The notes beneath the pieces were generated by a model. It ran no database searches, was not told the DNA's origin, and worked only from the letters and a program-made list of their open reading frames with translations. A stretch of 64,000 nucleotides of DNA from Patescibacteria group bacterium UBA3466 (GTDB lineage Bacteria > Patescibacteriota > Minisyncoccia > Phycocordibacterales > UBA918): NCBI GenBank assembly GCA_002378195.1, contig DFRJ01000001.1:161722-225721 (forward strand), read 5' to 3'. Below, in pieces: positions 4,202 through 64,000 of the stretch; within the stretch, counting starts at the first letter, position 1, and every line of letters starts with the position of its first letter. The position numbers and the translations under genes are program-made.

Positions 4202-4882
4202 ATGAACAAAACTTCAATCCAGTGCCTTGGCTTTATTATGGACGGCAATCGCCGTTGGGCGAAAGAAAAAAACCTGCCTACTTTAGAGGGTCATCGTAAG
4301 GGGCACGAGGTGTTCCTTGACTGCGTTCGCTTTGTTAGAGATCAGCATATCCCGCACGCAGTTTTTTATGCCTTTTCTACTGAGAATTGGAATCGTTCAG
4401 AAGAAGAGGTGGCGTATCTCATGCAGTTGTTCGCTCAAGTCATTGAAAATATCAAGAAAGGAGTAGATGAAGAGAGGGTGCGAGTGCGGATAGTTGGTAA
4501 TCGGTCTGACTTTTCAGAAGAACTGCAAACCGCTATGACAGAGTTGGAAGAAGATAGTGCCAAATATACAGAGACTACCATCTGGTTGGCGCTATCATAT
4601 GGAGGCCGAGCCGAAATAATCACGGCCGTTAATCAGGCGGTCGAAAACGGCACTAAAGTGACAGAAACAGATTTTCAAAAATTATTATGGACAGCTGATA
4701 TGCCTGATCCCGACATGATCGTGCGTACCAGCGGCGAACAGAGACTGTCTAATTTTTTGCCCTGGAATTCAGTTTATAGTGAATTCTTGTTTTTAGACAA
4801 ACACTGGCCCGCTTTGACCAAAAGTGATTTCGACGGCATACTCAATGAATATGAATCCAGAGACAGGCGAAAAGGTAAGTAA
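4202..4882 (+). CDS. uppS: Undecaprenyl pyrophosphate synthase (isoprenyl transferase)
   Basis: HLGFIMDGNRRWA near the N-terminus plus the central ENW and C-terminal RTSGEQRLSNFLPW motifs of cis-prenyltransferases. Confidence 0.9.
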   Translation: MNKTSIQCLGFIMDGNRRWAKEKNLPTLEGHRKGHEVFLDCVRFVRDQHIPHAVFYAFSTENWNRSEEEVAYLMQLFAQVIENIKKGVDEERVRVRIVGNRSDFSEELQTAMTELEEDSAKYTETTIWLALSYGGRAEIITAVNQAVENGTKVTETDFQKLLWTADMPDPDMIVRTSGEQRLSNFLPWNSVYSEFLFLDKHWPALTKSDFDGILNEYESRDRRKGK

Positions 4883-5621
4883 TGAACCAGCAGTATTGTT
4901 TGAGAACGATGATGTTGTTTTCATCAACAAGCCATACGGCTGGTTAACTCATGCGGATGGACATAATCAAACTGCACCGGTAGTGGTGGATTGGTTGTGC
5001 GCCAAGTACCCTGAAGCTAAGGGGGTTGGAGAGCCTGGCTACGCCAAAGATGGCTCGGAACTCGATCGATCGGGTATTGTGCACCGGCTTGATCGAGAAA
5101 CGTCTGGAGTGTTGGTGTTGGCAAAGAATCAACCTGCATACGAATTTCTCAAGGAACAATTTAAGGAACGGTTGGTACGCAAAGAGTACCGAGCGTTTGT
5201 GTATGGCCGGATGAATGATCGGTGGGGCACTATCAACCGACCAATCGGCCGTAGTGCCAAAGACTCTCGTCGTCGATCAGCTGAGCGGGGAGCCAAGGGT
5301 GTGCGTCGGGAGGCGATTACCGACTTTGAGCGAGTCGGGATGGGTGAGTATGATGGCGAACCTTTTTCTTATGTTAGATTGATCCCTAAAACTGGCCGCA
5401 CTCACCAGCTTCGAGTGCATTTACGCGCCATCGATCGTCCAATTGTTGGTGATGGTCTATATGCTGAGCATAAAATCCAAAAATCCAATAACTTATCGCT
5501 TGATAGGCTGGCTCTTCATGCCTATATTCTTGAATTGGCCCTCCCGAGTGGTGAAACCCACCGCGCTATGGCACCAGTTCCCCAAGAGTTTGAAATAGCG
5601 GCCGAGCGCATTGCAGAGTAA
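4824..5621 (+). CDS. RluA-family pseudouridine synthase
   Basis: VHRLDRETSGVLVLAKN catalytic-Asp motif and KEYRAFVYG block of the RluA/RluD family. Overlaps the uppS 3' end, so the true start is probably 4845 or 4851. Confidence 0.8.
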   Translation: MISTAYSMNMNPETGEKVSNEPAVLFENDDVVFINKPYGWLTHADGHNQTAPVVVDWLCAKYPEAKGVGEPGYAKDGSELDRSGIVHRLDRETSGVLVLAKNQPAYEFLKEQFKERLVRKEYRAFVYGRMNDRWGTINRPIGRSAKDSRRRSAERGAKGVRREAITDFERVGMGEYDGEPFSYVRLIPKTGRTHQLRVHLRAIDRPIVGDGLYAEHKIQKSNNLSLDRLALHAYILELALPSGETHRAMAPVPQEFEIAAERIAE

Positions 5622-6589: not shown

Positions 6590-6795
6590 AAGAAAGCAAA
6601 CTGCTTTGCTTTCGTCTGGAGTTAAAAGACGGAACGATGTGAGTGTGCGAACAAGTGAGTCGGGGTCGAAAGCACTTGGTAGATTTGTTGCGAAGCAATA
6701 AATATACTTAGTGACTTGTGGCCAACGTAGGGAGTAGACATACAAATTAAACGAGGCGATATCTCCGATATCGCCTCGTTTGCTATACTACCGAC

Positions 6796-10770: not shown

Positions 10771-12015
10771 CTAGTTCATATCCAGAATCAACCCGGCCCA
10801 GGTGAAGCGGTCGGCGCCCATACCTTGGCCGGTTTCAGGATGGTAGTACTCACGCATGCCAGACTTTCGGATTAGTTCTTCAGTAGAGGTTTTTAGTTTA
10901 GCCGCTTCCTCGTTAAAACCGTATCGCTTTAATCCTTGGTAAACACACCAATTGACCACCATCCAGATTGGCCCGCGCCAATGCGGGTGCTGCCACGGTT
11001 GACCAAAGTCTGGTTCGGTGGGGGCGTAGGCTTCATCGCTCTGACTAACGGTCGGGATTGAAAATGGGGTAGAGAAGTGACGGGGAGAATTAAAATATTT
11101 ATCGATTAACTCAGACGCTTCTTCTGGTGAGTATAATCCAGCGAATAAGGGGGCAAAATGAGCCCAAGTATCTACTTCAATGAGTGGTTGGCTGGGTCCC
11201 ATAGCGCTCAAAAATACTCCGTCACTAAAACAGTAGCGCCGCAAATCCTCGGCAGTTTGATCGGCTTGCTGAAGCAGCTGATCAGATTTTGTCTGATCTC
11301 CCAAAATTTCAGCTATCCGACTTAAGGAGCGGACGCTCTCTAGGGTGAAAATATTGAATGGCACGTCTTCGACCCAGAAGTGTTCGTGTGTACCCTGATT
11401 AGCCTTAAACGCATTTTGCTTATGCACGTCAAATAAGGCAAACCGCTTTTTTTGATTTTCCTCTACATCGTGTATTGGTGGCAAGTCGAGCGCGATATCA
11501 AAACGCGGTGAGTTATCCTCGCCCGATTCGTCGGGGTTGATGATGCCGTAAATATTTCGGTTGGGAAGTTGGCGCTCACGCGCTAGGTATTCGTGCCACT
11601 TCACCAGTTTGGGGAAAATGCGCTGCAGCCAATCAGTATTACTGGTCTTTTCAAAAATTCTTAAAGCAGTGTATGCAATGACCGGCGGCTGGATGAGGGT
11701 GGTAGTGTTAGTGTCGACGCCCCAGTCAACCGGGTACACATCGTGGTCACGCTCCCAGTAGATCACGTGAGGTACCATGCCGTTTTCCCACTGTTTGGTT
11801 AGCAAGGTTTCGATTTCTTTTTCTGCCAGTTCTGGCTGGTAGTAGCTATATATGAGAGCATGCCAACAAGAGTCCCAGAGCCATTGGTAGGGGTAGGCGC
11901 GGTCGGAAGGCACGGTGTAGAAATGTCCGCCAGACTTACGCTGGTTGTTGGCCATGGTTGATTTGATAAGGGGCAAGAACTCACTTTCCATGGTCTCATT
12001 ATAGCGGTCAATCAT
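10771..12015 (-). CDS. GH63-like six-hairpin glycoside hydrolase (mannosylglycerate/glucosylglycerate hydrolase-like)
   Basis: YPYQWLWDSCWHA and HPHWRGPIWMVVNWCVYQGL blocks resemble the MGH1-like / GH63 alpha-alpha toroid glycosidases. Confidence 0.55.
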   Translation of the reverse strand: MIDRYNETMESEFLPLIKSTMANNQRKSGGHFYTVPSDRAYPYQWLWDSCWHALIYSYYQPELAEKEIETLLTKQWENGMVPHVIYWERDHDVYPVDWGVDTNTTTLIQPPVIAYTALRIFEKTSNTDWLQRIFPKLVKWHEYLARERQLPNRNIYGIINPDESGEDNSPRFDIALDLPPIHDVEENQKKRFALFDVHKQNAFKANQGTHEHFWVEDVPFNIFTLESVRSLSRIAEILGDQTKSDQLLQQADQTAEDLRRYCFSDGVFLSAMGPSQPLIEVDTWAHFAPLFAGLYSPEEASELIDKYFNSPRHFSTPFSIPTVSQSDEAYAPTEPDFGQPWQHPHWRGPIWMVVNWCVYQGLKRYGFNEEAAKLKTSTEELIRKSGMREYYHPETGQGMGADRFTWAGLILDMN

Positions 12016-17998: not shown

Positions 17999-18009
17999 GT
18001 TCTTCACAC

Positions 18010-18036
18010 AAAAAACACCCCGTCGGGGTGTTTTTT
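18010..18036 (+). terminator. Rho-independent terminator
   Basis: aaaaacaccccg-tc-ggggtgttttttg. Confidence 0.8.
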
Positions 18037-18232
18037 GTTGCGCTGTCAAGAAAAACACGTACAAGAATATAAAAATAAAACCTTGTATATATTGGCAAAA
18101 TCTAAAATTTGAATCGTAATTTCGCTACTCAGTAGTTATCCACAGGTTTGAGGGCACTAAGTACAGGATATCCTTATTTATAGAGCTGCACTCGATCACG
18201 CCTAATTCTGGAAAATGGTAGTATTTATTTAT

Positions 18233-18251
18233 CACACGAAGTAGTCGTGTG
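18233..18251. promoter_or_regulatory. Palindromic hairpin cacacga-agtag-tcgtgtg upstream of nrdB (candidate operator, NrdR-box-like spacing off by 1)
   Basis: ACAC-N9-GTGT palindrome ~200 nt upstream of the nrdB start. Confidence 0.25.
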
Positions 18252-18457
18252 TCGGGGGTATGACACACGCTCCTCTCTCTTCAGAAGAGCAGAGCATCAT
18301 TTTTTTAAATGGTGGTGTGTTTGTCGCGGCCTAGTTTGCGCCTAGACCTAATTGCACTAAAATAGTTTCACCAATCTAATTTAGTATCTTCCACCAATTA
18401 CGTCTGCACGCAAGCACCAAAGTCATTTACTCATAATCCAATTATTTAGAGACTTAC

Positions 18458-33031: not shown

Positions 33032-33084
33032 GACAAGCTATAATCCGCAGGTAGTGCTAGACGGTAGTTTGGTATGATGAGTTT

Positions 33085-34294: not shown

Positions 34295-37200
34295 ATGTCT
34301 GATATACATAAACAATCTAATATGAATAACAAGAATGATGGTCGCGTAAGCGACAAGGTAAAAGTGGTTGACGCTAAGCCTGCTTCTGAAGTGGCCAGGC
34401 GAGAAGAGGACATGCAAGCCTTTTGGGTTGAGCATGACATTTTTAATAAAACCTTAGAGACTCCAGCTGGCAATGAGCCAGACGGGGATTTTGTTTTTTA
34501 TGACGGTCCACCATTTGCCACCGGAGCACCTCACTACGGACACCTACTACAAAGCGCTCTCAAAGATGCCATTCCACGCTTTTGGACCATGAACGGCAAG
34601 CGGGTGCGTCGCCAGTGGGGGTGGGATTGTCACGGATTGCCGGTTGAGAATTTGATTGAAAAGAAATTGGGACTAGCCACCAAGAAGGATATTGAAGATT
34701 TTGGAGTAAAAAACTTTAACGAAGAAGCGCGTAATACCGTCATGGAGTACGCTGATGATTGGCGACAAATCGTGCCGCGCATGGGTCGGTTTGTTGATAT
34801 GGAAAATGACTACAAGACCATGGACAGTACCTACACCGAAAGTGTGTGGTGGGTGTTTAAGTCACTACATGAAAAAGGTTTGGTGTATGAAGGTTTTAAG
34901 ACTATGCATCTTTGTCCACGCTGTGGTACGACCTTGTCCAACTTCGAGGTGAATCAGGGTTATAAGGACATCAAGGATTTATCGGTGTTTGTTGAGTTGC
35001 CACTAATAGATGAAGCGGCTTCGCTGATAGTCTGGACGACTACTCCGTGGACTCTGCCGGGCAACATCGCCGCTGCAGTACATAAAGACATTGAGTATGC
35101 TCGAGTTAAGCTGACCGAAGATGATGGGGAAAAGACCGTGATCTTAGCCAAGGATCGGATTGAAGCTGTGCTTGGACAAAAGACTTTTGAAATCATCGGC
35201 ACTTACCAAGGGTCTGAACTGATCGGCAAGCAGTATCAGCCACCTTTTGATTATCATCAAAAGGAAGAGTTTGACGGAAAAGAAAATTGCTGGACGATTT
35301 ACCACGCCGATTATGTTGAGGTCGGTGAAGAAGGTAGTGGTATTGTGCACATTGCAGCTGCGTATGGAGAAGATGACATGAATTTGGCCAAAGAGAATGG
35401 GGTGCCAATCCGGCACCATGTCAATGAATCCGGCCATTTTATGGATTTTGTTACTGACTTTGCAGGTCTGCTGGTAAAGCCAAAAGATGACAAGACAGCC
35501 GATATCAATCATATGGACACCGATATCGAGATCATTCGCGCTTTGGCACAAAAAGGTGTGTTATTTGGTAAGGAAAAAATTACTCACAGCTATCCGCATT
35601 GTTGGCGTTGTGAGACACCGCTTCTGAATTACGCCACCACCTCTTGGTTTGTTGAAGTGACCAAGTTACGCAGTGAGTTATTGGCTGCAAACGCCGAGGT
35701 AGATTGGGTGCCAGAACATGTAGGGAAGAATCGCTTTGGAAAGTGGCTTGAGGGTGCGCGCGACTGGGCAGTGTCACGACAGCGTTATTGGGGAGCACCT
35801 TTACCGATCTGGAAAAATCCGGACACAAACGAGGTGCATGTCATTGGTGGGCTCGAAGAGCTAAAGAAATTAGTGAAAACTAGTGGCAATCAGTATGTAC
35901 TAATGCGCCACGGTGAGAGTGAAAGTAATATCAAAGGTATCATTAGCTGCAACAAAGCAAATGTTGACGGACTGACTGATAAAGGTAAAGAGCAGGCGAC
36001 AACGTCAGCTGCAAAGCTAGAAGATATCGATGTGATTATTCATTCAGGCTTCCAGCGCACCAAAGAGACGGCTGAAATTGTGGCCGCCCGTTTTCCTGGC
36101 GTCGAACTAATTGAAGATGATCGGATTCGTGAACTTGACCTGAGTGATGATTTTGAAGGTCAGACTTGGAAAGAGTACAACGCCAGCTTTGGTACTTGGG
36201 AAGAAAAGTTTAAAAAAGAATTGGTTGGTTCCGAAAACCGCCTAGACGTACAAAAGCGTATGGGAGAGTTCTTGTACGATCTGGATAAGCGCTATGCCGA
36301 CAAGAAGATTTTGATTGTCAGTCACGCCGGCCCATTGTTTGCTCTTGAGTGTGCAATTGACGGCTTGAATATCGAACAGTCAAAAAGCTACTTCGCTGAC
36401 GGAGCGGCCTACTTCAACAACGCTGAAGTGCGCACGCCAGATTTTTGTCCACTACCGCATAATGATAATTATGAACTTGATTTCCATCGTCCATACATAG
36501 ATGAGGTGGAATTATATGATGGGGGAGTGCGACTTTTGCGCGTACCGGATGTGTTTGATTGTTGGTTTGAATCTGGCTCAATGCCGTACGCTCAAAATCA
36601 CTATCCATTCTCGTGTGATCAAGAGGTGTTCCTGCAGCAACGATTCCCAGCGCAGTTTATTGGCGAAGGTTTAGATCAGACTCGTGGTTGGTTCTATTCA
36701 ATGATTGTGCTGGGAGTGGCTTTGTTCGGTAAGTCACCGTATGAAAACGTCGTAACAAATGGCTTGGTGCTGGCTGAAGATGGCCGGAAGATGAGTAAAT
36801 CATTACAGAATTATCCTGATCCAGTCGAGCTGATCAGTCAGGTGGGTGCCGATACCATTCGCTTTTATCTCCTGTCATCGTCATTGATAAGAGGGGAAGA
36901 TGTAAACTTTTCTGAGAAGGAGGTGCAAGAATTACAAAGAAAGAATATTGGTCGACTACACAATGTGCTGGTGATGTACCAGATGTTTGCGGATGGCACT
37001 GAGGCGGCCGACAATTCAGACCATGTGCTAGACCGATGGGTGGTAGCTCGCCTGAATCAATTGGTTGCTGAAGTGACAGCAGGTTATGAAAATTATGAGC
37101 TCGATAAAGCCACTCGACCAATTACTGATTTTATTGATGACCTGTCAGTATGGTACTTGCGTCGTAGTCGCGATCGTCTTAAAAGTGATGATGAGAAAGA

Positions 37201-37834
37201 CAAGGCTTTGGCACTTAGCACCTTGCGCTATGTGCTACAAAATCTTGCTTTAGTGATGGCTCCAGTGATGCCGTTTTACGCAGAATTTCTGTGGCAAGCG
37301 GTTAAAGAAGAAACTGAGGCTGAAAGCGTGCACTTAGGTCGGTGGCCAAAAACGACGAAGATTGATGAGTCGGTGGTGGTTGATATGTTGGCGACCAGAA
37401 CTATCGTAACCGAGGCGCTAGAGGCGCGGACTACGGCTGGGATTAAGGTGCGTCAACCAATTCAGGCTGTTTTCGGCCCGAAACTAGCAGCTGAGCTGTC
37501 AGCTATAGTGGTTGAAGAACTTAATGCCAAAGAGTACCAAGAGGCCGAGACTGTAAAGATTGATACTGAGCTGACCGCGGAGCTTTTGTCTGAAGGAGCG
37601 GTGCGAGAACTCATGCGAGCGGTGCAGGGAAATAGAAAGCAGGCCGGGCTGCAGCCAGACGACGAAATTACCCTCACTATCCAAGCAGATGAAGCTAGCA
37701 AACAGGCGGTGGAGACCCACGAGGAGCTTTTGGTAAGAACAGTAGGAGCAAGCGAGCTAGCATTTGCTGAGGTTACTGGGGAAGAGGTGCAAGCTGGAGA
37801 TTATAAGTTTGTCTTTACCATTAAGACTGCCTAG
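34295..37834 (+). CDS. ileS: Isoleucyl-tRNA synthetase carrying an inserted histidine-phosphatase (phosphoglycerate-mutase-like) domain
   Basis: HIGH (PFATGAPHYGHLL), editing-domain TTPWTLPGN and KMSKS motifs are all present. Between IWKNPDTNEVHVIGG and DFHRPYIDEV lies a ~200-aa block with the histidine-phosphatase motifs LMRHGESESN and ILIVSHAGP. Confidence 0.85.
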   Translation: MSDIHKQSNMNNKNDGRVSDKVKVVDAKPASEVARREEDMQAFWVEHDIFNKTLETPAGNEPDGDFVFYDGPPFATGAPHYGHLLQSALKDAIPRFWTMNGKRVRRQWGWDCHGLPVENLIEKKLGLATKKDIEDFGVKNFNEEARNTVMEYADDWRQIVPRMGRFVDMENDYKTMDSTYTESVWWVFKSLHEKGLVYEGFKTMHLCPRCGTTLSNFEVNQGYKDIKDLSVFVELPLIDEAASLIVWTTTPWTLPGNIAAAVHKDIEYARVKLTEDDGEKTVILAKDRIEAVLGQKTFEIIGTYQGSELIGKQYQPPFDYHQKEEFDGKENCWTIYHADYVEVGEEGSGIVHIAAAYGEDDMNLAKENGVPIRHHVNESGHFMDFVTDFAGLLVKPKDDKTADINHMDTDIEIIRALAQKGVLFGKEKITHSYPHCWRCETPLLNYATTSWFVEVTKLRSELLAANAEVDWVPEHVGKNRFGKWLEGARDWAVSRQRYWGAPLPIWKNPDTNEVHVIGGLEELKKLVKTSGNQYVLMRHGESESNIKGIISCNKANVDGLTDKGKEQATTSAAKLEDIDVIIHSGFQRTKETAEIVAARFPGVELIEDDRIRELDLSDDFEGQTWKEYNASFGTWEEKFKKELVGSENRLDVQKRMGEFLYDLDKRYADKKILIVSHAGPLFALECAIDGLNIEQSKSYFADGAAYFNNAEVRTPDFCPLPHNDNYELDFHRPYIDEVELYDGGVRLLRVPDVFDCWFESGSMPYAQNHYPFSCDQEVFLQQRFPAQFIGEGLDQTRGWFYSMIVLGVALFGKSPYENVVTNGLVLAEDGRKMSKSLQNYPDPVELISQVGADTIRFYLLSSSLIRGEDVNFSEKEVQELQRKNIGRLHNVLVMYQMFADGTEAADNSDHVLDRWVVARLNQLVAEVTAGYENYELDKATRPITDFIDDLSVWYLRRSRDRLKSDDEKDKALALSTLRYVLQNLALVMAPVMPFYAEFLWQAVKEETEAESVHLGRWPKTTKIDESVVVDMLATRTIVTEALEARTTAGIKVRQPIQAVFGPKLAAELSAIVVEELNAKEYQEAETVKIDTELTAELLSEGAVRELMRAVQGNRKQAGLQPDDEITLTIQADEASKQAVETHEELLVRTVGASELAFAEVTGEEVQAGDYKFVFTIKTA

Positions 37835-47891: not shown

Positions 47892-47974
47892 GTGCCTATT
47901 CTAACACGCGCTTTAGCCTTGAAGCTAAGGAGTATGTATGGTACTGTTCTGCCGTTATTAATTAAGACACACAC

Positions 47975-55904: not shown

Positions 55905-56645
55905 ATGCAGATAGAAAAGGACAGTAAGATAAAAATTAAAAGACTTTCAAGTGACGAAAACTACTATAATAATGTCTTTAAAAAGGCAGAAAAGATCGTG
56001 TCCGTTATATTTTATGTTGTCTCTGAGACTAGTATAAACAATAAGACAGAAAGTCATCTAAATAAACTAAAAGACATAGCTTTTAAAACTCACGAACTGT
56101 CTCTTAACACCTTGTCTCTTCAAAGTCATGAACAATTTCAAGGACTGTACGCTTTTCAAAATTCACTCGTCTCGCTAGCGAGCTACTTGAAGATTGCCAA
56201 CACGGCTCAGGTGGTAACTAGTGAGATTCACAACCTACTAGCTGATCAACTAGATATCGTGCAGCGCTATCTAAATAACCATTACTTAAGTAATGACGGT
56301 ATTGCCATAGACTCATTGGTAGACAAGTTGGACTTAGCGAGCAAGGCTCCAAAGACAAAGGGTGTCAATTCGGCTACAGGCGGGACGCGACAACGGCGGG
56401 TGAATATCCCGGCGGGAGACATTAGTACCGATGCTTATATGGTACATAGCCAGATGACCGATAGAGGAGAGAGAATAAAGACAGTCCTTGAAGCAAAGCC
56501 GCAAGCAACCATTAAAGACATTGCAGAAGTGATTACGGACGTAAGCGAAAAGACAATTCAAAGAGAGTTGAATAGTCTTATAGAAAAAGGACAAGTGTTC
56601 AGGGAAGGAGAAAGGCGTTGGTCTAGATACTCGGTTTCTAAATAG
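55905..56645 (+). CDS. Hypothetical protein with C-terminal winged-helix DNA-binding domain
   Basis: C-terminal ATIKDIAEVITDVSEKTIQRELNSLIEKGQV resembles DeoR/MarR-type wHTH. Confidence 0.4.
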   Translation: MQIEKDSKIKIKRLSSDENYYNNVFKKAEKIVSVIFYVVSETSINNKTESHLNKLKDIAFKTHELSLNTLSLQSHEQFQGLYAFQNSLVSLASYLKIANTAQVVTSEIHNLLADQLDIVQRYLNNHYLSNDGIAIDSLVDKLDLASKAPKTKGVNSATGGTRQRRVNIPAGDISTDAYMVHSQMTDRGERIKTVLEAKPQATIKDIAEVITDVSEKTIQRELNSLIEKGQVFREGERRWSRYSVSK

Positions 56646-56681
56646 CTTGTACTTTATATCAATAAAGTCCTATTTAAGTTT

Positions 56682-56712
56682 TGTCCGTTTGACCTATAAG
56701 GTCAAACGGACA
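56682..56712. promoter_or_regulatory. Perfect 13-bp inverted repeat tgtccgtttgacc-tataa-ggtcaaacggaca
   Basis: Arms are perfectly complementary; no T-run follows, so it may be a protein-binding palindrome rather than a terminator. Confidence 0.5.
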
Positions 56713-57158
56713 GATGTGTAGGAAGAGAAAGCTTCGTTAAAGAATTAGAAAGTCCAAGATGTCTATTAATGTACGTCTGAGTCTTTTTTGCTTGCAAAAT
56801 AAGCCATTTTGTTATGTAATGCTGAACTGGTGTAAGAAGACCCTAGGTCAGGCGTCTTATTAACCAGACCAGAGAGAACGGCATTTCGGTTAGAAATTCA
56901 CTAATTTTTATACATGAAGCATGTTTTATAACACCATGTATCCACAGTCTGTGAACTCCTATACCAGTATAAAGATGCTATTATCTCTGTACGCGCAAGA
57001 GCGCTTTTTTTCTAAGCCTCTGCGTTGTGAACGCACTTTGACAATGAAGCTATCTATGGCTTCTAAATAATAAATCAAAGTCTTAACACACTAATACCGC
57101 GTGACCTTTTTCCGTTTTAGACCGCCTGGCAGATACGCAGACCTGATTCGCAGCTAAC

Positions 57159-57216
57159 CTTTGCAGGCAGCACACCGTCTCTCTATCGAGAGGGGAATGG
57201 TGTGCTGACTGCAAAG
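57159..57216 (+). other. Long hairpin (18-bp arms, 17/18 paired) within the ~630-nt leader of the surface-protein gene
   Basis: ctttgcaggcagcacacc...ggtgtgctgactgcaaag with an inner ctctc-tatc-gagag stem. Confidence 0.5.
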
Positions 57217-57346
57217 TTAGTGATATTACGTAAGTGATGTGATAAACCACTTACTAATATGAATTAATTCATATTATTAGATATATCAATTAACGTCTCT
57301 TCGGAGACATGCGTAGTAATTACGCAAACAAATTACAGATAATTAT

Positions 57347-59413
57347 ATGACTATCGCACGAGAATTTGTTGCAAAGCTAGCAGTAGCTTTTGTAGCAGTT
57401 GCTATGGTTCTTTCTGCTTTTGCACCAGCTGCACAAGCTCAAACAACAGAAGAACTACAAGCAATGATTAATGACCTTCTTGCTCAAGTAGCAGCTCTAC
57501 AAGCTGGTGCTGGACAAGACGCTGGAGTTTCTTCAGACGTATGTCCTTACACTTGGACACGAGACCTTTCAACAGGTTCAACTGGAGCTGATGTAATGAA
57601 GCTTCAACAATTCCTAAACGCTGACCCAGACACACGAGTGGCTGTATCAGGCGTAGGATCAGCAGGAATGGAAACTGAATACTACGGTCCAGCGACCGCA
57701 GCTGCAGTTTCAAAGATGCAAGTTAAGTACCGAGCTGACATCCTTTCACCAGCAAACTTGGTGAACCCAACAGGATTCTTCGGTCCTTCATCACGAACAA
57801 AGGCTAACTCTCTATGTGTTGCTGCTCCAGTAATGGACGATGACATGGGAGACGATGACATGATGGATGATGACGAAGATGAAGACGATTCAGATAACAC
57901 ACTATCTGGTGAAGCTTCTCTAAACTCAGTATCTGTTAACTCAGAAGAATCTGAAGTTGAAGAAGGTGAAGAAGATGTTGCAGTTATGGAACTCGGAGTA
58001 GAGTTCGAAAACGGTGACGCTGAAATCGCTCGACTTGACGTTGAACTTACAGCTGACGGTGGTAACGCTGAAGATGAACCATGGGAAGTATTTGAAACTG
58101 TTTCTCTATGGATCGACGGCGACATGATCGCTGAAGCTGATGCTGACGACGAAGATGAATACCTAGACGAAGACGACGGTTCAATCCGATTCTCTGGTCT
58201 TGATATCTTCGCTGAAGAAGATGAAGAAGTAGAAATCATCGTTGCTGTATCAATGCAGAACAACCTTGAAAGCATGCCAGAAACTTGGAACGTTACTGTT
58301 GAATCAATGCGATTCTTCGACGCTGATGGTGTAGCCGAAACTGTAACAGACGGTGACACTGACGCTGACGAACTAGGTGATCTAGTTGAATTCGATGTTG
58401 AAGCTGAAGGTTCAAACGAAGATCTAGATGTTTCTCTATCTTCAAACAACCCAGACTCAACTGACATTGTTGTTGACACTGACTCAGACACTAACGATGT
58501 AACAATCCTAGTAGCTGATCTAGAAGCTGAAGACAACGATCTAGAAGTTGATACATTCATCGTTCGAGTTAACACAACTGGTGCTTCTACTACTGACGTA
58601 GTTGATGACATTCGAGTTGTTATTGGCGGTCAAAGCTTTGATGCTGAGAACGTTTCAAACTCAAACAAGGGAACAATCAGCGGATCTGATTCACGATACG
58701 TAGACAACGACGTAACTGATGACGCTGTGTGGTACGTATTCGACATTGACGGAGACGTAACTCTTGAAGAAGATGAAGAAGTAGATCTAGAAGTAGTAGT
58801 TGATCTTAAGGACACCAACGATGGTGCTCGGTACTCAAACGGTACTCAAATTGAAGCAACTATCACTTCAGTAGAACTAGCAGCATGGGACGTAGAAGGA
58901 GCTGACGATGTTACTCCTAGCGGATCTGCAGCTGGTGATACTCACACACTAGTAGCTGAAGGTATCCTTGTACCAGTTGACGGTGTTGAAACAACAACTG
59001 ATACTTCAGGTGACAACGATACTCTTGGTGAATTCGAAATCGAATTCGAAGTTACTGCAGTAGAAGGTGACTTCTACATCCGAGAACTTGCTACTGAAGG
59101 TACATCTGCTACAACTGGTGTTGAATTCACAGTTGACGGAACTTCAGCAACAACTTCAGGAACTCTATCTTCAACAGCTGACGAAGACACTGCAGGTGTA
59201 TTCACAGTTCGAGAAGGAGAAACTGAAACATTTACTCTACGAGTAACTGTTAACCCAGATGCCTCAGGTGACTTCCGAGTTAACCTAACAGGTGTTAACT
59301 ACGCAGAAAACTCAAACGGATTCTACGTAACAGCTGGTACAGACGGTGACCTATACGTACCGACTCCAGCACAAGACTTCCGAACATCTTACGAAACTAT
59401 CCAAGGTTCATAA
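57347..59413 (+). CDS. Secreted, highly acidic surface protein with N-terminal peptidoglycan-binding (PG_binding_1-like) domain
   Basis: Signal peptide ending AQAQ; CPYTWTRDLSTGSTGADVMKLQQFLN...YGPATAAAVSKMQVKY resembles PGRP-type PG-binding domains. The remaining ~550 aa are D/E/T/V-rich. Codon usage (gct/gaa/gac/gtt/cga) resembles that of the ribosomal-protein genes here. Confidence 0.6.
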   Translation: MTIAREFVAKLAVAFVAVAMVLSAFAPAAQAQTTEELQAMINDLLAQVAALQAGAGQDAGVSSDVCPYTWTRDLSTGSTGADVMKLQQFLNADPDTRVAVSGVGSAGMETEYYGPATAAAVSKMQVKYRADILSPANLVNPTGFFGPSSRTKANSLCVAAPVMDDDMGDDDMMDDDEDEDDSDNTLSGEASLNSVSVNSEESEVEEGEEDVAVMELGVEFENGDAEIARLDVELTADGGNAEDEPWEVFETVSLWIDGDMIAEADADDEDEYLDEDDGSIRFSGLDIFAEEDEEVEIIVAVSMQNNLESMPETWNVTVESMRFFDADGVAETVTDGDTDADELGDLVEFDVEAEGSNEDLDVSLSSNNPDSTDIVVDTDSDTNDVTILVADLEAEDNDLEVDTFIVRVNTTGASTTDVVDDIRVVIGGQSFDAENVSNSNKGTISGSDSRYVDNDVTDDAVWYVFDIDGDVTLEEDEEVDLEVVVDLKDTNDGARYSNGTQIEATITSVELAAWDVEGADDVTPSGSAAGDTHTLVAEGILVPVDGVETTTDTSGDNDTLGEFEIEFEVTAVEGDFYIRELATEGTSATTGVEFTVDGTSATTSGTLSSTADEDTAGVFTVREGETETFTLRVTVNPDASGDFRVNLTGVNYAENSNGFYVTAGTDGDLYVPTPAQDFRTSYETIQGS

Positions 59414-59462
59414 TCCATTTAGGATTATCCTAGGATGAGTAACGTATGGTTACGGATTCTTC

Positions 59463-59490
59463 AAAAAAGCCCCTTCGGGGGCTTTTTTGT
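59463..59490 (+). terminator. Rho-independent terminator
   Basis: aaaaaagcccc-ttcg-ggggcttttttg. Confidence 0.85.
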
Positions 59491-63730: not shown

Positions 63731-64000
63731 ATAGCTATTTAGCTTGTGTATAGCCTGTTGATAAAGTGGTGAAAAAGTCGAGGTATTTTTCCAGATAGAA
63801 CGCTTGACTTTATTTTTATTTCCTATAAGATAGCGGGCACGTATTTATGAGTTTGAGTGAAAAAGCAACGTCGTAGTAAGCGAAGTCAGTCACTGATTTT
63901 ACTTGCCGCGACTGTCGCGGTTTTTTCTTTCTCAAATTCAAGGGGGTGCGCGATTCTTTGAAAATTGCATATTCAAGAGAGACAGATTGATAAGGTCTGT

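What the first reader, a model, noticed from the sequence alone, without database searches (positions are those of the whole stretch)
56646..57346. 700-nt structured leader ahead of a highly expressed acidic peptidoglycan-binding surface protein
No ORF of 60 aa or more spans this region. It contains a perfect 13-bp IR (56682-56712) next to a wHTH gene, a gcgc-aaga-gcgc plus T-run terminator-like element (~56990-57012), an 18-bp-arm hairpin (57159-57216) and palindromes (atgaattaattcat; gtctc-ttcg-gagac) before the start at 57347. The downstream gene uses the same biased codons as the ribosomal genes (gct/gaa/gac/gtt/cga). It encodes a signal peptide, a PG-binding domain and ~550 acidic residues: a plausible abundant cell-envelope or S-layer-like component of a CPR cell. 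The long leader suggests riboregulation or a small RNA.
Basis: partly seen in the sequence, partly recalled or inferred. Interest (0 to 1): 0.55.

Follow-up and report, generated by a model that had tools for sequence, protein, structure and literature searches.

The report
rRNA-style structured leader of surface-protein gene
The 700-base gap is a deeply conserved expression cassette (stacked promoters, then a roughly 355-base folded mRNA leader that reuses signals from the organism's own ribosomal-RNA leader) in front of the most codon-optimised, cell-wall-anchored surface protein of a group of tiny uncultured bacteria; no such leader is in the RNA family library.

Summary
It is not junk and not a small gene. 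The arrangement wHTH gene, 630-1400 nt ORF-free gap, PG-binding acidic protein recurs in about 70 Paceibacteria genomes. Parts of the gap are 80-92% identical in DNA where the proteins are only 35-70% identical.

The upstream half (56792-56990) looks like promoter DNA: P1 (TTGCAA-17-TGTAAT), fixed-spacing boxes without covariation, and an extended -10 promoter P3 (TGCTATTAT). The downstream half (about 56991-57346) is a transcribed 5' UTR:
- a 5' GCGC hairpin followed by U7;
- a boxA-like element matching the boxA of this genome's own 23S rRNA leader;
- C-rich blocks;
- five helices, of which four covary strongly (94% of cells paired against 33-41% in slid controls; 33 of 42 pairs with double changes; many G-U pairs on the + strand);
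- an invariant 20-nt hairpin found only here.

A covariance model hits once per locus, always abutting the start codon. Rfam has no match. The codon adaptation index is 0.78, at the level of the ribosomal proteins.

Best reading: a cis-acting high-expression and regulatory leader with rRNA-type antitermination. The terminator-like hairpin is weak and is probably a 5' stabiliser. No transcript data were available.

The parts
55905..56645 (+). 246-aa gene: N-terminal four-helix bundle, disordered basic linker, C-terminal winged HTH. It is the conserved upstream partner of the cassette.
   Evidence: Weak Pfam HTH hits only (TrmB, HTH_11, DeoR; E about 1e-3). A homologue lies upstream on the same strand, 630-1400 nt before the surface gene, in almost all related loci; it is missing only from the short-gap paralogue loci. 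The model has pLDDT 72, and its N-domain resembles Avd / 'S23' four-helix bundles with only weak E-values of about 0.01.
56682..56712 (+). Perfect 14-bp inverted repeat with a 3-nt loop; probably the 3' hairpin or terminator of the wHTH gene, not part of the leader.
   Evidence: The sequence is not conserved, but strong hairpins of different sequence follow the homologous gene in many loci.
56792..56820 (+). Promoter P1: -35 TTGCAA (56792-97), 17-nt spacer, -10 TGTAAT (56815-20); predicted start about 56827.
   Evidence: Conserved hexamers with a non-conserved spacer of 16-17 nt, about 10 nt before the GTAAGA box. A regex finds it in 40 of 62 loci, with spacer 17 in 27 and 16 in 13. Inferred from sequence only.
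56832..56869 (+). Fixed-spacing boxes GTAAGA (56832-37), CGTCTT (56853-58) and CCAGAC (56864-69).
   Evidence: GTAAG to CGTC is exactly 21 nt in 51 of 52 loci, with a variable sequence between and no covariation. GTAAGn-N15-CGTC is present in 62 of 67 loci. The role is unknown; the boxes may be protein-binding sites or the initial transcribed sequence of P1.
56939..56946 (+). Near-invariant box TATCCACA.
   Evidence: Conservation profile and alignments. Role unknown.
56976..56984 (+). Promoter P3: extended -10 TGCTATTAT; predicted transcription start about 56991.
   Evidence: It is the only + strand TGnTAnnnT match in the gap. The same motif sits 8-10 nt before the hairpin in 45 of the 49 loci where that hairpin was detected, and the hexamers vary only as TAnnnT (TATACT, TATAAT, TACTAT and others). 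The motif is enriched about 5-fold upstream of genes in this window, with 6-7 nt to the ATG in 5 leaderless genes.
56993..57011 (+). GCGC-AAGA-GCGC hairpin (56993-57004) and U7 (57005-11): a 5'-terminal stem-loop of the P3 transcript and at most a weak terminator for P1 transcripts.
   Evidence: The hairpin and T run are conserved. There is a compensatory variant GUGC/GCAC. The stem is too short for the terminator scan. Similar GC hairpins followed by T6-7 lie inside the 23S leaders of 3 of 4 genomes examined.
57022..57045 (+). Small hairpin GCGTT-GTG-AACGC overlapping a boxA-like element GCACTTTGACAAT (57033-45).
   Evidence: The family consensus is TGTTCTTTGAcAAnTnaATA. It is present with at most 2 mismatches in 58 of 67 loci at a syntenic position. 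It matches the published boxA consensus GYTCTTTAANA at 10 of 11 positions, and exactly in L008 and L041 (PMC5725501). The same motif occurs in the 23S rRNA leaders of this genome and four other genomes.
57095..57159 (+). Conserved C-rich, apparently unpaired blocks TACCGCGTGACCTTTTTCCG and GACCGCC..CAGATACGCAGACC..TCGCAGCTAACC.
   Evidence: No complementary partner was found and RNAalifold predicts no consensus pairing. Role unknown; they may be a Rho-loading-like segment or a factor-binding site.
57153..57221 (+). Helix H0: conserved base (GCUAAC/GUUAGU) with a variable-length covarying extension.
   Evidence: 14 pairs, 12 with double changes, 95.9% of cells paired. Total length varies from about 30 to 110 nt between loci.
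57230..57254 (+). Helix H1 with the conserved loop UGAUAA (57240-45).
   Evidence: 9 pairs, all with double changes. The same loop sequence UUGAUAAG caps the covarying hairpin just after boxA in the rRNA leaders.
57256..57275 (+). Helix H2: near-invariant palindromic hairpin AAUAUGAAUUAAUUCAUAUU.
   Evidence: The 18-nt core is exact in 59 independent genome loci, once each. Of 80 metagenome stretches holding the 22-mer, 74 have the family gene starting 47-98 nt downstream, one is ambiguous in orientation, and the other 5 are cut too short to tell. It is absent from 2.9 M viral contigs. The only variants are one symmetric swap and four A-to-G changes that give G-U on the + strand.
57284..57288 (+). 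UAUCA, complementary to the H1 loop; a possible pseudoknot enclosing H2.
   Evidence: 91.6% complementary, but invariant, so there is no statistical support. Divergent loci carry different matching pairs: L063 UUAACGU/ACGUUAA and L057 GAACU/AGUUC. RNAalifold picks this helix. Inconclusive.
57295..57308 (+). Helix H3: GUCUC-UUCG-GAGAC, a covarying stem often capped by a tetraloop.
   Evidence: 6 pairs, all with double changes. Loops include UUCG, GCAA, GAAA and CUAA.
57311..57325 (+). Helix H4: GCGUA-GUAAU-UACGC, a covarying stem with a UAAU-containing loop.
   Evidence: 5 pairs, all with double changes.
57326..57346 (+). A/U-rich unstructured stretch up to the start codon, with no Shine-Dalgarno sequence.
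   Evidence: Only 9 of 58 genes in the window have an SD-like sequence, so the lack of SD is normal for this genome.
57347..59413 (+). 688-aa surface protein: signal/TM helix, helix, PG-binding domain, acidic linker and four Ig-like beta-sandwich domains.
   Evidence: CAI 0.781. A strong canonical terminator follows at 59462-59489.

Best explanation
The gap holds a conserved, two-part expression cassette for the main peptidoglycan-anchored surface protein of Paceibacteria.

Part 1 (about 56792-56990) is promoter and regulatory DNA. It contains tandem sigma-70-type promoters: P1; a P2 that about 20-25 related genomes have and this one lacks; and an extended -10 promoter P3. These are interspersed with fixed-spacing boxes.

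Part 2 (about 56991-57346) is the 5' untranslated leader of the mRNA. It starts with a short GC hairpin two bases from the predicted 5' end. It then carries a boxA element of the same type as the organism's own 23S rRNA leader, followed by conserved C-rich single-stranded blocks. It ends in a ~200-nt folded domain (helices H0-H4, a possible pseudoknot and an invariant 20-nt hairpin) that abuts an A/U-rich start region.

Proposed working:
- Several promoters give high transcription.
- The boxA recruits Nus factors, so that RNA polymerase crosses the long untranslated, C-rich leader without Rho-dependent or hairpin-dependent termination, as in rRNA operons.
- The 5' hairpin and the compact folded domain protect the mRNA from 5'-end-dependent decay.
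- The invariant hairpin and junction nucleotides are a sequence-specific docking site for a factor that tunes translation start or stability. The co-conserved neighbouring wHTH protein is the obvious but unproven candidate.

Shown: conservation, strand, helices, exclusivity to this gene, the motif match to the rRNA leader, and codon adaptation. Inferred: the transcription starts, Nus and Rho involvement, the stabilising role, and the binding partner.
For: Synteny and conservation:
- The wHTH gene, a long ORF-free gap and the surface gene recur in about 70 genomes.
- Blocks of the gap are 80-92% identical in DNA where the proteins are only 35-70% identical.

RNA structure on the + strand:
- Every one of 48 sequences independently folds hairpins at the homologous places.
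- Covariance model R1 gives exactly one hit per locus in 68 of 79 sources (853 kb, both strands). All hits are on the + strand and nearly all end at the start codon.
- 94.4% of cells are paired, against 33-41% when partners are slid. 33 of 42 pairs show double changes, and there are 507 double-change cells against 56-99 in slid controls. G-U pairs are abundant.
- The palindrome's one-sided variants are all A-to-G, giving G-U.

Promoters:
-.

boxA:
- The family consensus is TGTTCTTTGAcAA, against the published consensus GYTCTTTAANA (PMC5725501).
- This genome's 23S leader reads GATTCTTTGAAAATTGCATATTC followed by a hairpin with loop UUGAUAAG. Four further genomes show the same boxA motif in their rRNA leaders, and three of them the hairpin as well.
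- L072's surface leader reads GTTATTTGACAACTGCATATTTCAAG.
- A NusG gene is in the window.

Other support:
- High expression is indicated by a CAI of 0.781, rank 3 of 64.
- There is no conserved ORF in the gap and no Rfam family matches.
- An analogous design is documented for Lactobacillus S-layer genes: a long stabilising 5' UTR, two promoters and biased codons (PMC3666127).
Against: - There are no transcript data, so all starts and ends are inferred.
- The window's own boxA copy deviates from the family consensus at 2 of 12 positions.
- A profile search of the short motif gives only weak E-values (1-9) for the rRNA leaders.
- boxA contains TTGACA and could be mistaken for a -35 box, although no -10 follows at the right spacing.
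- P1 lies upstream of a hairpin and U7, so P1 could instead make a separate short RNA.
- The C-rich blocks and the boxes after P1 have no assigned role.
- The pseudoknot has no statistical covariation.
- The link to the wHTH protein rests on synteny alone, and its N-domain fold match is weak.
- The surface location and abundance of the protein are inferred.
Confidence: 0.55

Rival explanations
1. The folded domain (H0-H4 with conserved junctions, loop and hairpin) is a sensor: a riboswitch or a protein- or tRNA-binding aptamer that switches translation of the surface protein on or off in response to a signal. The rest of the leader would be accessory.
For: The architecture is typical of aptamers: covarying stems of variable length around invariant junction and loop nucleotides, a possible pseudoknot, and a position directly before the start codon. 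It is exclusive to one gene family.
Against: No alternative mutually exclusive pairing (expression platform) was found. The start region is A/U-rich and unpaired in all loci. No Rfam riboswitch matches. A fully invariant 9-bp stem (H2) is unusual for a small-molecule aptamer.
Confidence: 0.2
2. The upstream half is an independent small RNA gene: P1 (56792-56820) drives a ~185-nt RNA (about 56827-57011) ending at the GCGC hairpin and U7. This RNA acts in trans, and the mRNA has its own promoter downstream.
For: A promoter-like P1 and a hairpin with a U run bracket a segment that contains near-invariant boxes: GTAAGA, CGTCNT, CAGAC and AUCCACA.
Against: No consensus secondary structure or covariation exists in this segment apart from the hairpin. 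The spacer sequences are free but their lengths are fixed, which is more typical of DNA sites. About 20-25 related loci carry a full second promoter inside the segment. The hairpin has only 4 bp, and a similar GC hairpin followed by a T run is read through in the rRNA leader. The segment never occurs away from this gene.
Confidence: 0.2
3. The invariant palindrome (57256-57275) works as double-stranded DNA. It would be an operator bound by a dimer of the neighbouring wHTH protein, which blocks or roadblocks transcription of the surface gene.
For: It is a perfect 18-20 bp palindrome, invariant where all other stems vary. Its one double change is symmetric, as expected for a dimer site. A wHTH gene is conserved next door.
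Against: All four one-sided variants are A-to-G on the + strand, which keep an RNA pair (G-U) but break DNA symmetry. The site lies about 265 nt downstream of the predicted start and overlaps no recognisable promoter. It is embedded between RNA helices that covary. This rival is compatible with the main explanation, because the site could be read both as DNA and as RNA.
Confidence: 0.25
4. The gap encodes a missed housekeeping RNA (6S, RNase P, SRP, tmRNA) or a small protein.
For: The gap is large and conserved in a compact genome.
Against: No Rfam hit appears at the gathering score or up to E = 10 in the window or in 12 related loci. ARAGORN finds no tmRNA. The only 'conserved peptide' is the translation of the palindrome, without a start codon and with non-conserved flanks. 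The reading frame shifts between loci in block A.
Confidence: 0.03

Closest known systems
rRNA operon leader antitermination signal (boxA bound by NusB/NusE, with NusA, NusG and SuhB), and boxA elements upstream of protein genes (Baniulyte et al. 2017, PMC5725501)
   Same: A boxA-type sequence lies in a long untranslated leader downstream of strong promoters. The motif matches the same genome's 23S leader boxA, including the adjacent TG(C/A)ATAT box. A GC hairpin followed by a U run precedes boxA in both leaders. A hairpin loop UGAUAA(G) is shared by both.
   Different: Here it precedes a surface-protein gene, at 270-560 nt from the start codon. The described protein-gene cases lie within 50 nt of the start codon and are mostly repressive. 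Factor binding is untested. The window's own copy is diverged.
Expression signals of S-layer protein genes in Lactobacillus (slpA): a long 5' UTR forming a stabilising structure, two promoters and biased codons (review PMC3666127)
   Same: Tandem promoters, a long structured 5' UTR with a hairpin at the predicted 5' end, extreme codon adaptation and a wall-anchored abundant surface protein.
   Different: There is no sequence or structural homology. This leader is much longer and far more conserved across a whole class. It contains boxA and an invariant hairpin. It has not been shown that the protein forms an S-layer.
5'-terminal stem-loop mRNA stabilisers (E. coli ompA 5' UTR; Bacillus 5' stabilisers). 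Stated from my own knowledge, not checked in a paper here.
   Same: A stable hairpin is predicted 2 nt from the 5' end of the P3 transcript, in front of an envelope-protein gene.
   Different: The 5' end is inferred only. The hairpin is followed by a U run and looks like a weak terminator.
Processive antitermination RNAs of envelope or polysaccharide operons (the EAR element of Bacillus eps operons; put RNAs). Stated from my own knowledge.
   Same: A structured, conserved leader RNA is associated with envelope biogenesis and read-through of termination signals.
   Different: The Rfam scans returned no antiterminator RNA family. The likely antitermination determinant here is a boxA rather than the fold itself.
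Candidate cis-regulatory structured RNA motifs found by comparative genomics (Weinberg et al. 2010 and 2017: PMC2864571, PMC5737381)
   Same: The same kind of evidence applies: a conserved intergenic motif, covarying stems and a fixed genetic context.
   Different: It is not in Rfam 15. It is confined to Paceibacteria/Parcubacteria. It is unusually long and is combined with promoter and boxA modules.

Membership tests
boxA / Nus-factor antitermination site | Sequence matching the boxA consensus (GYTCTTTAANA in gamma-proteobacteria) | tested here: met
   The family consensus GTTCTTTGAYAA matches 10 of 11 positions. L008 (GTTCTTTAACAA) and L041 match exactly. The window copy GCACTTTGACAA matches 9 of 11.
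boxA / Nus-factor antitermination site | The same motif is present in the organism's own rRNA leaders | tested here: met
   This genome's 23S leader has GATTCTTTGAAAATTGCATATTC at window 63952-63974. L025, L040, L071 and L051 have the equivalent. The profile E-values are weak because the motif is short.
boxA / Nus-factor antitermination site | Located in transcribed RNA downstream of a promoter | tested here: inconclusive
   It lies 42 nt downstream of the predicted P3 start and about 205 nt downstream of the predicted P1 start. Both starts are inferred from promoter motifs only.
boxA / Nus-factor antitermination site | Bound by NusB/NusE, and makes RNA polymerase termination-resistant | not testable with these tools
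   Only a NusG gene was seen in the window. NusB, NusE and Rho were not looked for.
Intrinsic (Rho-independent) terminator | A G+C-rich stem of about 5 bp or more followed by a U run | tested here: not met
   The stem has 4 bp (GCGC/GCGC), so the scan requiring 5 pairs does not report it, whereas the gene's own terminator at 59462-89 has 12 pairs. The U7 run is present. A similar hairpin and U run with a 6-bp stem lies inside the rRNA leader.
Sigma-70 extended -10 promoter (P3) | A TGnTAnnnT motif, conserved, with variation confined to the non-critical hexamer positions | tested here: met
   45 of 49 loci have it 8-10 nt before the hairpin, and all hexamers are TAnnnT. The motif is enriched before genes in this window. 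Promoter activity was not tested.
Known Rfam RNA families (riboswitches, leaders, sRNAs, housekeeping RNAs) | Covariance-model score at or above the gathering threshold | tested here: not met
   No hit was found in the gap of the window or of 12 related loci. The best sub-threshold hit is S4-Flavobacteria at 20.2 bits against a threshold of 35.2, E = 1, on the palindrome only.
Structured cis-regulatory RNA (generic) | Helices supported by compensatory changes, strand-specific, in a fixed position relative to one gene | tested here: met
   33 of 42 pairs show double changes, 94.4% of cells are paired, there is one + strand hit per locus, and nearly all hits end at the ATG.
Trans-acting small RNA gene | Own promoter and terminator, conserved structure or seed, and occurrence independent of one neighbouring gene | tested here: inconclusive
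   P1 and the hairpin with U7 exist. There is no conserved structure, and the segment is never separated from the surface gene.
S-layer protein | Forms a 2-D lattice covering the cell, usually with SLH or another wall-anchor domain, and is among the most abundant proteins | not testable with these tools
   A PG-binding anchor and four Ig-like domains are modelled, and CAI is high. There is no SLH domain and no structural match to solved S-layer proteins among the top 50 PDB hits.

The most novel reading that the evidence does not exclude
Paceibacteria have copied the control modules of their rRNA leader (hairpin and U run, boxA with its adjacent box, and the UGAUAA-loop hairpin) onto the gene for their main envelope protein. 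They then added a new ~200-nt pseudoknotted RNA domain with an invariant hairpin that is read by a dedicated factor, possibly the adjacent Avd-like/wHTH protein acting on RNA. Under this reading, envelope-protein output is hard-wired to the ribosome-synthesis machinery and separately gated by a new class of riboregulator. This would be one of the few elaborate regulatory devices in these minimal, largely leaderless-mRNA genomes.
Probability: 0.25. Interest if true: 0.78.

Novelty: new variant of a known kind. Interest (0 to 1): 0.62.

Why it matters
CPR/Patescibacteria have tiny genomes with few recognisable regulators. In this window most mRNAs appear to be leaderless or short-leadered. A leader of about 355 nt that is more conserved than the protein it precedes is therefore exceptional.

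It marks this protein family as a central, probably very abundant envelope component of a whole class of uncultured episymbiont-like bacteria. It also supplies a ready-made, class-wide RNA motif (model R1) for annotation.

If the boxA reading holds, it extends rRNA-type Nus antitermination to a structural protein gene in a deep bacterial lineage. It would also give a testable hypothesis for how growth rate and envelope synthesis are coupled in organisms that cannot yet be grown alone.

Tried and rejected
- Rfam at the gathering score on the whole window and on 12 related loci, and at E up to 10 on the gap, found nothing relevant. tRNA/tmRNA scan: none in the gap.
- RNAalifold on plain MAFFT alignments of the leader returned only the palindrome or nothing, because the hairpin lengths differ. 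This was solved with a curated 17-sequence seed and a covariance model.
- Small-ORF hypothesis: stop-to-stop peptides of 65 gaps were clustered, and only the translated palindrome recurs.
- The boxes after P1 were tested for pairing: none.
- The boxA TTGACA was tested as the -35 box of a fourth promoter: no conserved -10 lies at 16-18 nt (inspection).
- The pseudoknot was tested with explicit brackets: complementary but invariant, so unsupported statistically.
- A search for transcript-like contig ends among 19 contigs with the identical gene and 80 metagenome loci found only metagenome assemblies with scattered ends and no clustering.
- Palindrome search in viral contigs: no match.
- PDB sequence search for the wHTH protein: no hit. 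The fold search gave only weak four-helix-bundle matches.
- blastn of the rRNA leaders against the surface leaders found no long shared segments beyond the short motifs.
Full report
OBSERVATION

The window comes from a marine (TARA Oceans) member of the Paceibacteria/Parcubacteria, part of the CPR. Identical copies of the gene lie on metagenome contigs of up to 1.3 Mb, and homologues carry names such as Candidatus Paceibacterota, Kaiserbacteria and Nomurabacteria.

Between the 246-aa gene (55905-56645) and the 688-aa gene (57347-59413) there is no ORF of 60 aa or more. At 701 nt this is the longest intergenic gap in the window, where the median is 62.5 nt.

The one correction is that the GCGC-AAGA-GCGC stem has only four pairs, so a standard terminator scan does not report it. 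The region folds much better than shuffled controls on both strands.

The codon claim is correct. The gene's CAI against the ribosomal and translation-factor genes of the window is 0.781. That ranks third of 64 and is higher than L11 and L19, which were not in the reference set.

CONSERVATION

A search of one genome per species found 79 loci with a relative of the surface protein. In almost all of them a homologue of the 246-aa protein lies upstream on the same strand, followed by an ORF-free gap of 630-1400 nt. The exceptions are second, paralogous copies with short gaps.

Parts of the window's gap align at 80-92% DNA identity to genomes whose proteins are only 35-70% identical. A position-by-position profile shows conservation beginning at about 56792 and continuing in blocks to the start codon. 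The stretch 56646-56790 is not conserved.

No Rfam family matches the gap in the window or in twelve related loci. No tRNA or tmRNA lies there. The only recurrent 'peptide' is the translation of an invariant palindrome, without a start codon. The region is therefore functional non-coding sequence of an undescribed kind.

THE DOWNSTREAM HALF IS A STRUCTURED RNA ON THE + STRAND

Folding each of 48 homologous sequences separately gives hairpins at the same places but with different sequences. I built a covariance model (R1) from a 17-sequence seed with five helices.

Across 853 kb of loci and both strands, R1 finds exactly one hit in 68 of 79 sources. Every hit is on the + strand and nearly all end at the start codon of the surface gene. 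On the resulting alignment:
- 94.4% of cells form standard pairs, against 33-41% when the 3' partners are slid by 1-3 columns.
- 33 of 42 pairs have compensatory double changes.
- There are 507 double-change cells, against 56-99 in the slid controls.
- No shuffle reaches the observed values.

That alignment is fitted to the model, which inflates pairing somewhat. The independent per-sequence folds give the same picture. Frequent G-U pairs (for example 62 of 67 at the first pair of H0) would be A-C on the other strand, so the constraint acts on the + strand RNA.

In window coordinates the helices are:
- H0, 57153-57221: conserved base with a variable-length extension.
- H1, 57230-57254: loop UGAUAA.
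- H2, 57256-57275: the palindrome.
- H3, 57295-57308: UUCG loop.
- H4, 57311-57325.
An A/U-rich stretch then runs to the AUG.

H2 is almost invariant. The 18-nt core is exact, once per locus, in 59 independent genomes. Of 80 metagenome stretches that contain the 22-mer, 74 have a family gene starting 47-98 nt downstream and one more is ambiguous in orientation. The other five are truncated before the gene could start. The 22-mer is absent from 2.9 million viral contigs.

The only variants of H2 are a symmetric T/A swap and four one-sided A-to-G changes, each of which keeps an RNA pair as G-U. H2 is therefore an RNA hairpin whose sequence as well as its pairing is constrained, which suggests a specific binding site.

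The H1 loop is complementary to UAUCA after H2 (57284-88), suggesting a pseudoknot around H2. In the aligned set this helix never varies, so it has no statistical support. A few divergent loci do have different but matching sequences. I leave the pseudoknot as possible.

THE UPSTREAM HALF LOOKS LIKE PROMOTER DNA

Three promoter-like elements are conserved:
- P1 is TTGCAA-17 nt-TGTAAT (56792-56820). In relatives the two hexamers are conserved and the 16-17-nt spacer is not.
- P2 is a textbook TTGAC(G/T)-17-TAnnnT promoter in about 20-25 related loci. It is missing in this genome.
- P3 is TGCTATTAT (56976-84), an extended -10 box. The motif lies 8-10 nt before the GC hairpin in 45 of the 49 loci where that hairpin was detected, and the hexamer varies only within TAnnnT.

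The same motif type is enriched about five-fold before genes of this window. In five genes it sits 6-7 nt before the ATG, so leaderless mRNAs from extended -10 promoters are this organism's normal style. By that spacing P3 would start transcription at about 56991, two bases before the hairpin.

Between P1 and P3 lie near-invariant boxes: GTAAGA, CGTCNT, CAGAC and TATCCACA. They sit at fixed distances (GTAAG to CGTC is exactly 21 nt in 51 of 52 loci) with free sequence between them and no covariation. RNAalifold finds no consensus structure there apart from the hairpin. I therefore read this half as regulatory DNA, while not excluding that P1 also makes RNA.

THE LINK TO THE rRNA LEADER

After the hairpin and U7, the leader carries a conserved element with the family consensus TGTTCTTTGAcAA, often followed by nTGaATAT. 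It is present within two mismatches in 58 of 67 loci. This matches the published boxA consensus GYTCTTTAANA at 10 of 11 positions (PMC5725501).

The decisive comparison is internal. The same genome's 23S rRNA gene begins about 450 nt beyond the end of the window. The start of its leader lies inside the window. It contains:
- a TTGACT-16-TAAGAT promoter at about 63804-63831;
- a GC hairpin followed by T6 at 63906-63926;
- GATTCTTTGAAAATTGCATATTC at 63952-63974;
- a hairpin with loop UUGAUAAG.

Four other genomes have the same boxA and TGCATAT box in their 23S leaders. In three of them a covarying hairpin with loop UU(G/A)AUAAG follows, and two of these also have the GC hairpin and T run.

The surface-gene leader thus shares three modules with the rRNA leader: the hairpin and U run, boxA with its adjacent box, and the UGAUAA loop (in H1). 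This has two consequences. First, the hairpin and U run is unlikely to be an efficient terminator, since a similar GC hairpin followed by a T run is transcribed through in the rRNA leader. The gene's real terminator, with 12 pairs at 59462-89, is much stronger. Second, the leader probably recruits the rRNA-type antitermination machinery. A NusG gene is in the window.

A profile search with the short motif gives only weak E-values for the rRNA leaders. The window's own copy (GCACTTTGACAAT, 57033-45) is diverged. I therefore rate boxA as likely, not proven.

Conserved C-rich, apparently unpaired blocks (57095-57159) follow boxA. A Rho-loading-like segment that boxA would neutralise is one possibility, but their role is open.

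THE FLANKING PROTEINS

The 688-aa protein models well (pLDDT 82). It has an N-terminal hydrophobic helix, a second helix, a PG-binding domain, an acidic linker and four Ig-like beta-sandwich domains. The closest solved folds are integrin leg domains and Gram-positive surface adhesins such as PrgB, SspB and SpaP. It is a wall-anchored surface protein; whether it forms an S-layer cannot be said.

The 246-aa neighbour has a four-helix-bundle N-domain with weak resemblance to Avd / 'S23' bundles, a disordered basic linker and a C-terminal winged helix. It has no PDB sequence relative and belongs to a family of more than 1,500 members, which some sources annotate as ArsR-type regulators. Its conserved adjacency makes it the natural candidate to bind the invariant hairpin or palindrome, but nothing beyond synteny supports this.

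The 14-bp inverted repeat at 56682-56712 follows its stop codon. Equivalent hairpins of unrelated sequence follow the homologous gene in many loci, so I assign it to that gene's 3' end.

MECHANISM

I read the gap as a high-expression and regulatory cassette, with confidence 0.55 for the whole. The steps are:
- Tandem promoters drive transcription.
- A 5'-terminal hairpin and a compact folded domain stabilise the mRNA.
- boxA makes RNA polymerase resistant to termination across the ~355-nt untranslated leader.
- The invariant hairpin and junctions dock a factor that tunes translation start or stability.

This parallels what is documented for Lactobacillus S-layer genes: a long stabilising 5' UTR, two promoters and biased codons (PMC3666127). 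The addition here is rRNA-type antitermination.

The rivals are a ligand- or protein-sensing riboswitch-like domain (0.2), an independent small RNA from P1 (0.2), and the palindrome acting as a DNA operator (0.25, and compatible with the main reading). A missed housekeeping RNA or small protein is nearly excluded.

NOVELTY AND LIMITS

The kinds of element involved are known: a structured 5' UTR, boxA and tandem promoters. The specific RNA domain is not in Rfam. The reuse of rRNA-leader modules in front of a structural protein gene, across a whole CPR class, appears to be new, so I rate it a new variant of a known kind.

Everything about transcription starts, read-through, factor binding and protein abundance is inferred from sequence. 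No transcriptome or proteome data could be consulted. The contigs retrieved are metagenomic, and their ends show no clustering.

Noticed in passing
window 63804-64000 (continues beyond the window; L001 16458-20905): The promoter and the start of the leader of this genome's 23S-5S rRNA operon lie at the very end of the window. They comprise TTGACT-16-TAAGAT, a GC hairpin followed by T6 (63906-26), boxA GATTCTTTGAAAAT (63952-65), TGCATATTC, and a hairpin with loop UUGAUAAG. The 23S gene starts about 450 nt past the window end, with no 16S gene seen between the MS-channel gene and the 23S gene.
   Followed up: yes
whole window, e.g. 1153-1161, 6781-6789, 33070-33078, 47898-47906 (- strand): Only about 9 of 58 genes have a Shine-Dalgarno-like sequence. 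An extended -10 motif TGnTAnnnT sits 6-7 nt before the ATG of five genes, implying that leaderless mRNAs are common in this genome.
   Followed up: partly
L016, L023, L037, L067, L068 (about 130-170 nt upstream of position 5001 or the equivalent): Second, paralogous copies of the surface-protein gene in some genomes have a short gap and a different conserved leader. It has a long-range inverted repeat (TTAAGACAC...GTGTCTTAA) around an inner hairpin (CTCACA...TGTGAG). Model R1 does not hit them.
   Followed up: no
L071 about 4620-4690 and L040 about 11190-11245: A large insertion in the surface-gene leader of L071 shares a 24-nt exact match (ATAGCGTGAGCCCGTAACAAGCAA) and a second 16-nt near-match with the 23S rRNA leader region of another genome (L040). 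It may be a small mobile or shared structured element.
   Followed up: no
window 34295-37834: The isoleucyl-type class I tRNA synthetase (1179 aa) carries an inserted histidine-phosphatase (His_Phos_1) domain at residues 535-698, between the halves of its catalytic domain.
   Followed up: no
window 17999-18457: The second-longest gap of the window (459 nt) lies upstream of the ribonucleotide reductase genes (ATP-cone small-chain fusion, then the large chain). There is no Rfam hit at the gathering score.
   Followed up: no
window 55905-56645: The N-terminal four-helix bundle of the wHTH protein resembles the Avd accessory protein of diversity-generating retroelements and the '23S rRNA intervening-sequence protein' bundle (target TM-score 0.77-0.80, but E only about 0.01). 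The two domains are joined by a disordered arginine-rich linker (RQRRVNIP).
   Followed up: partly
downstream of the wHTH homologue in many loci (e.g. L012, L029, L036, L051, L053, L077): Long perfect hairpins (14-20 bp) without a T run follow this gene in many genomes, often built on GTCC/GGAC or GTCT/AGAC cores. They may be a lineage-typical terminator or 3' stabiliser style.
   Followed up: partly
window 59462-59489: A strong canonical intrinsic terminator (12-bp stem, A and T tracts on both sides, so possibly bidirectional) lies directly after the surface-protein gene, which therefore looks monocistronic.
   Followed up: no
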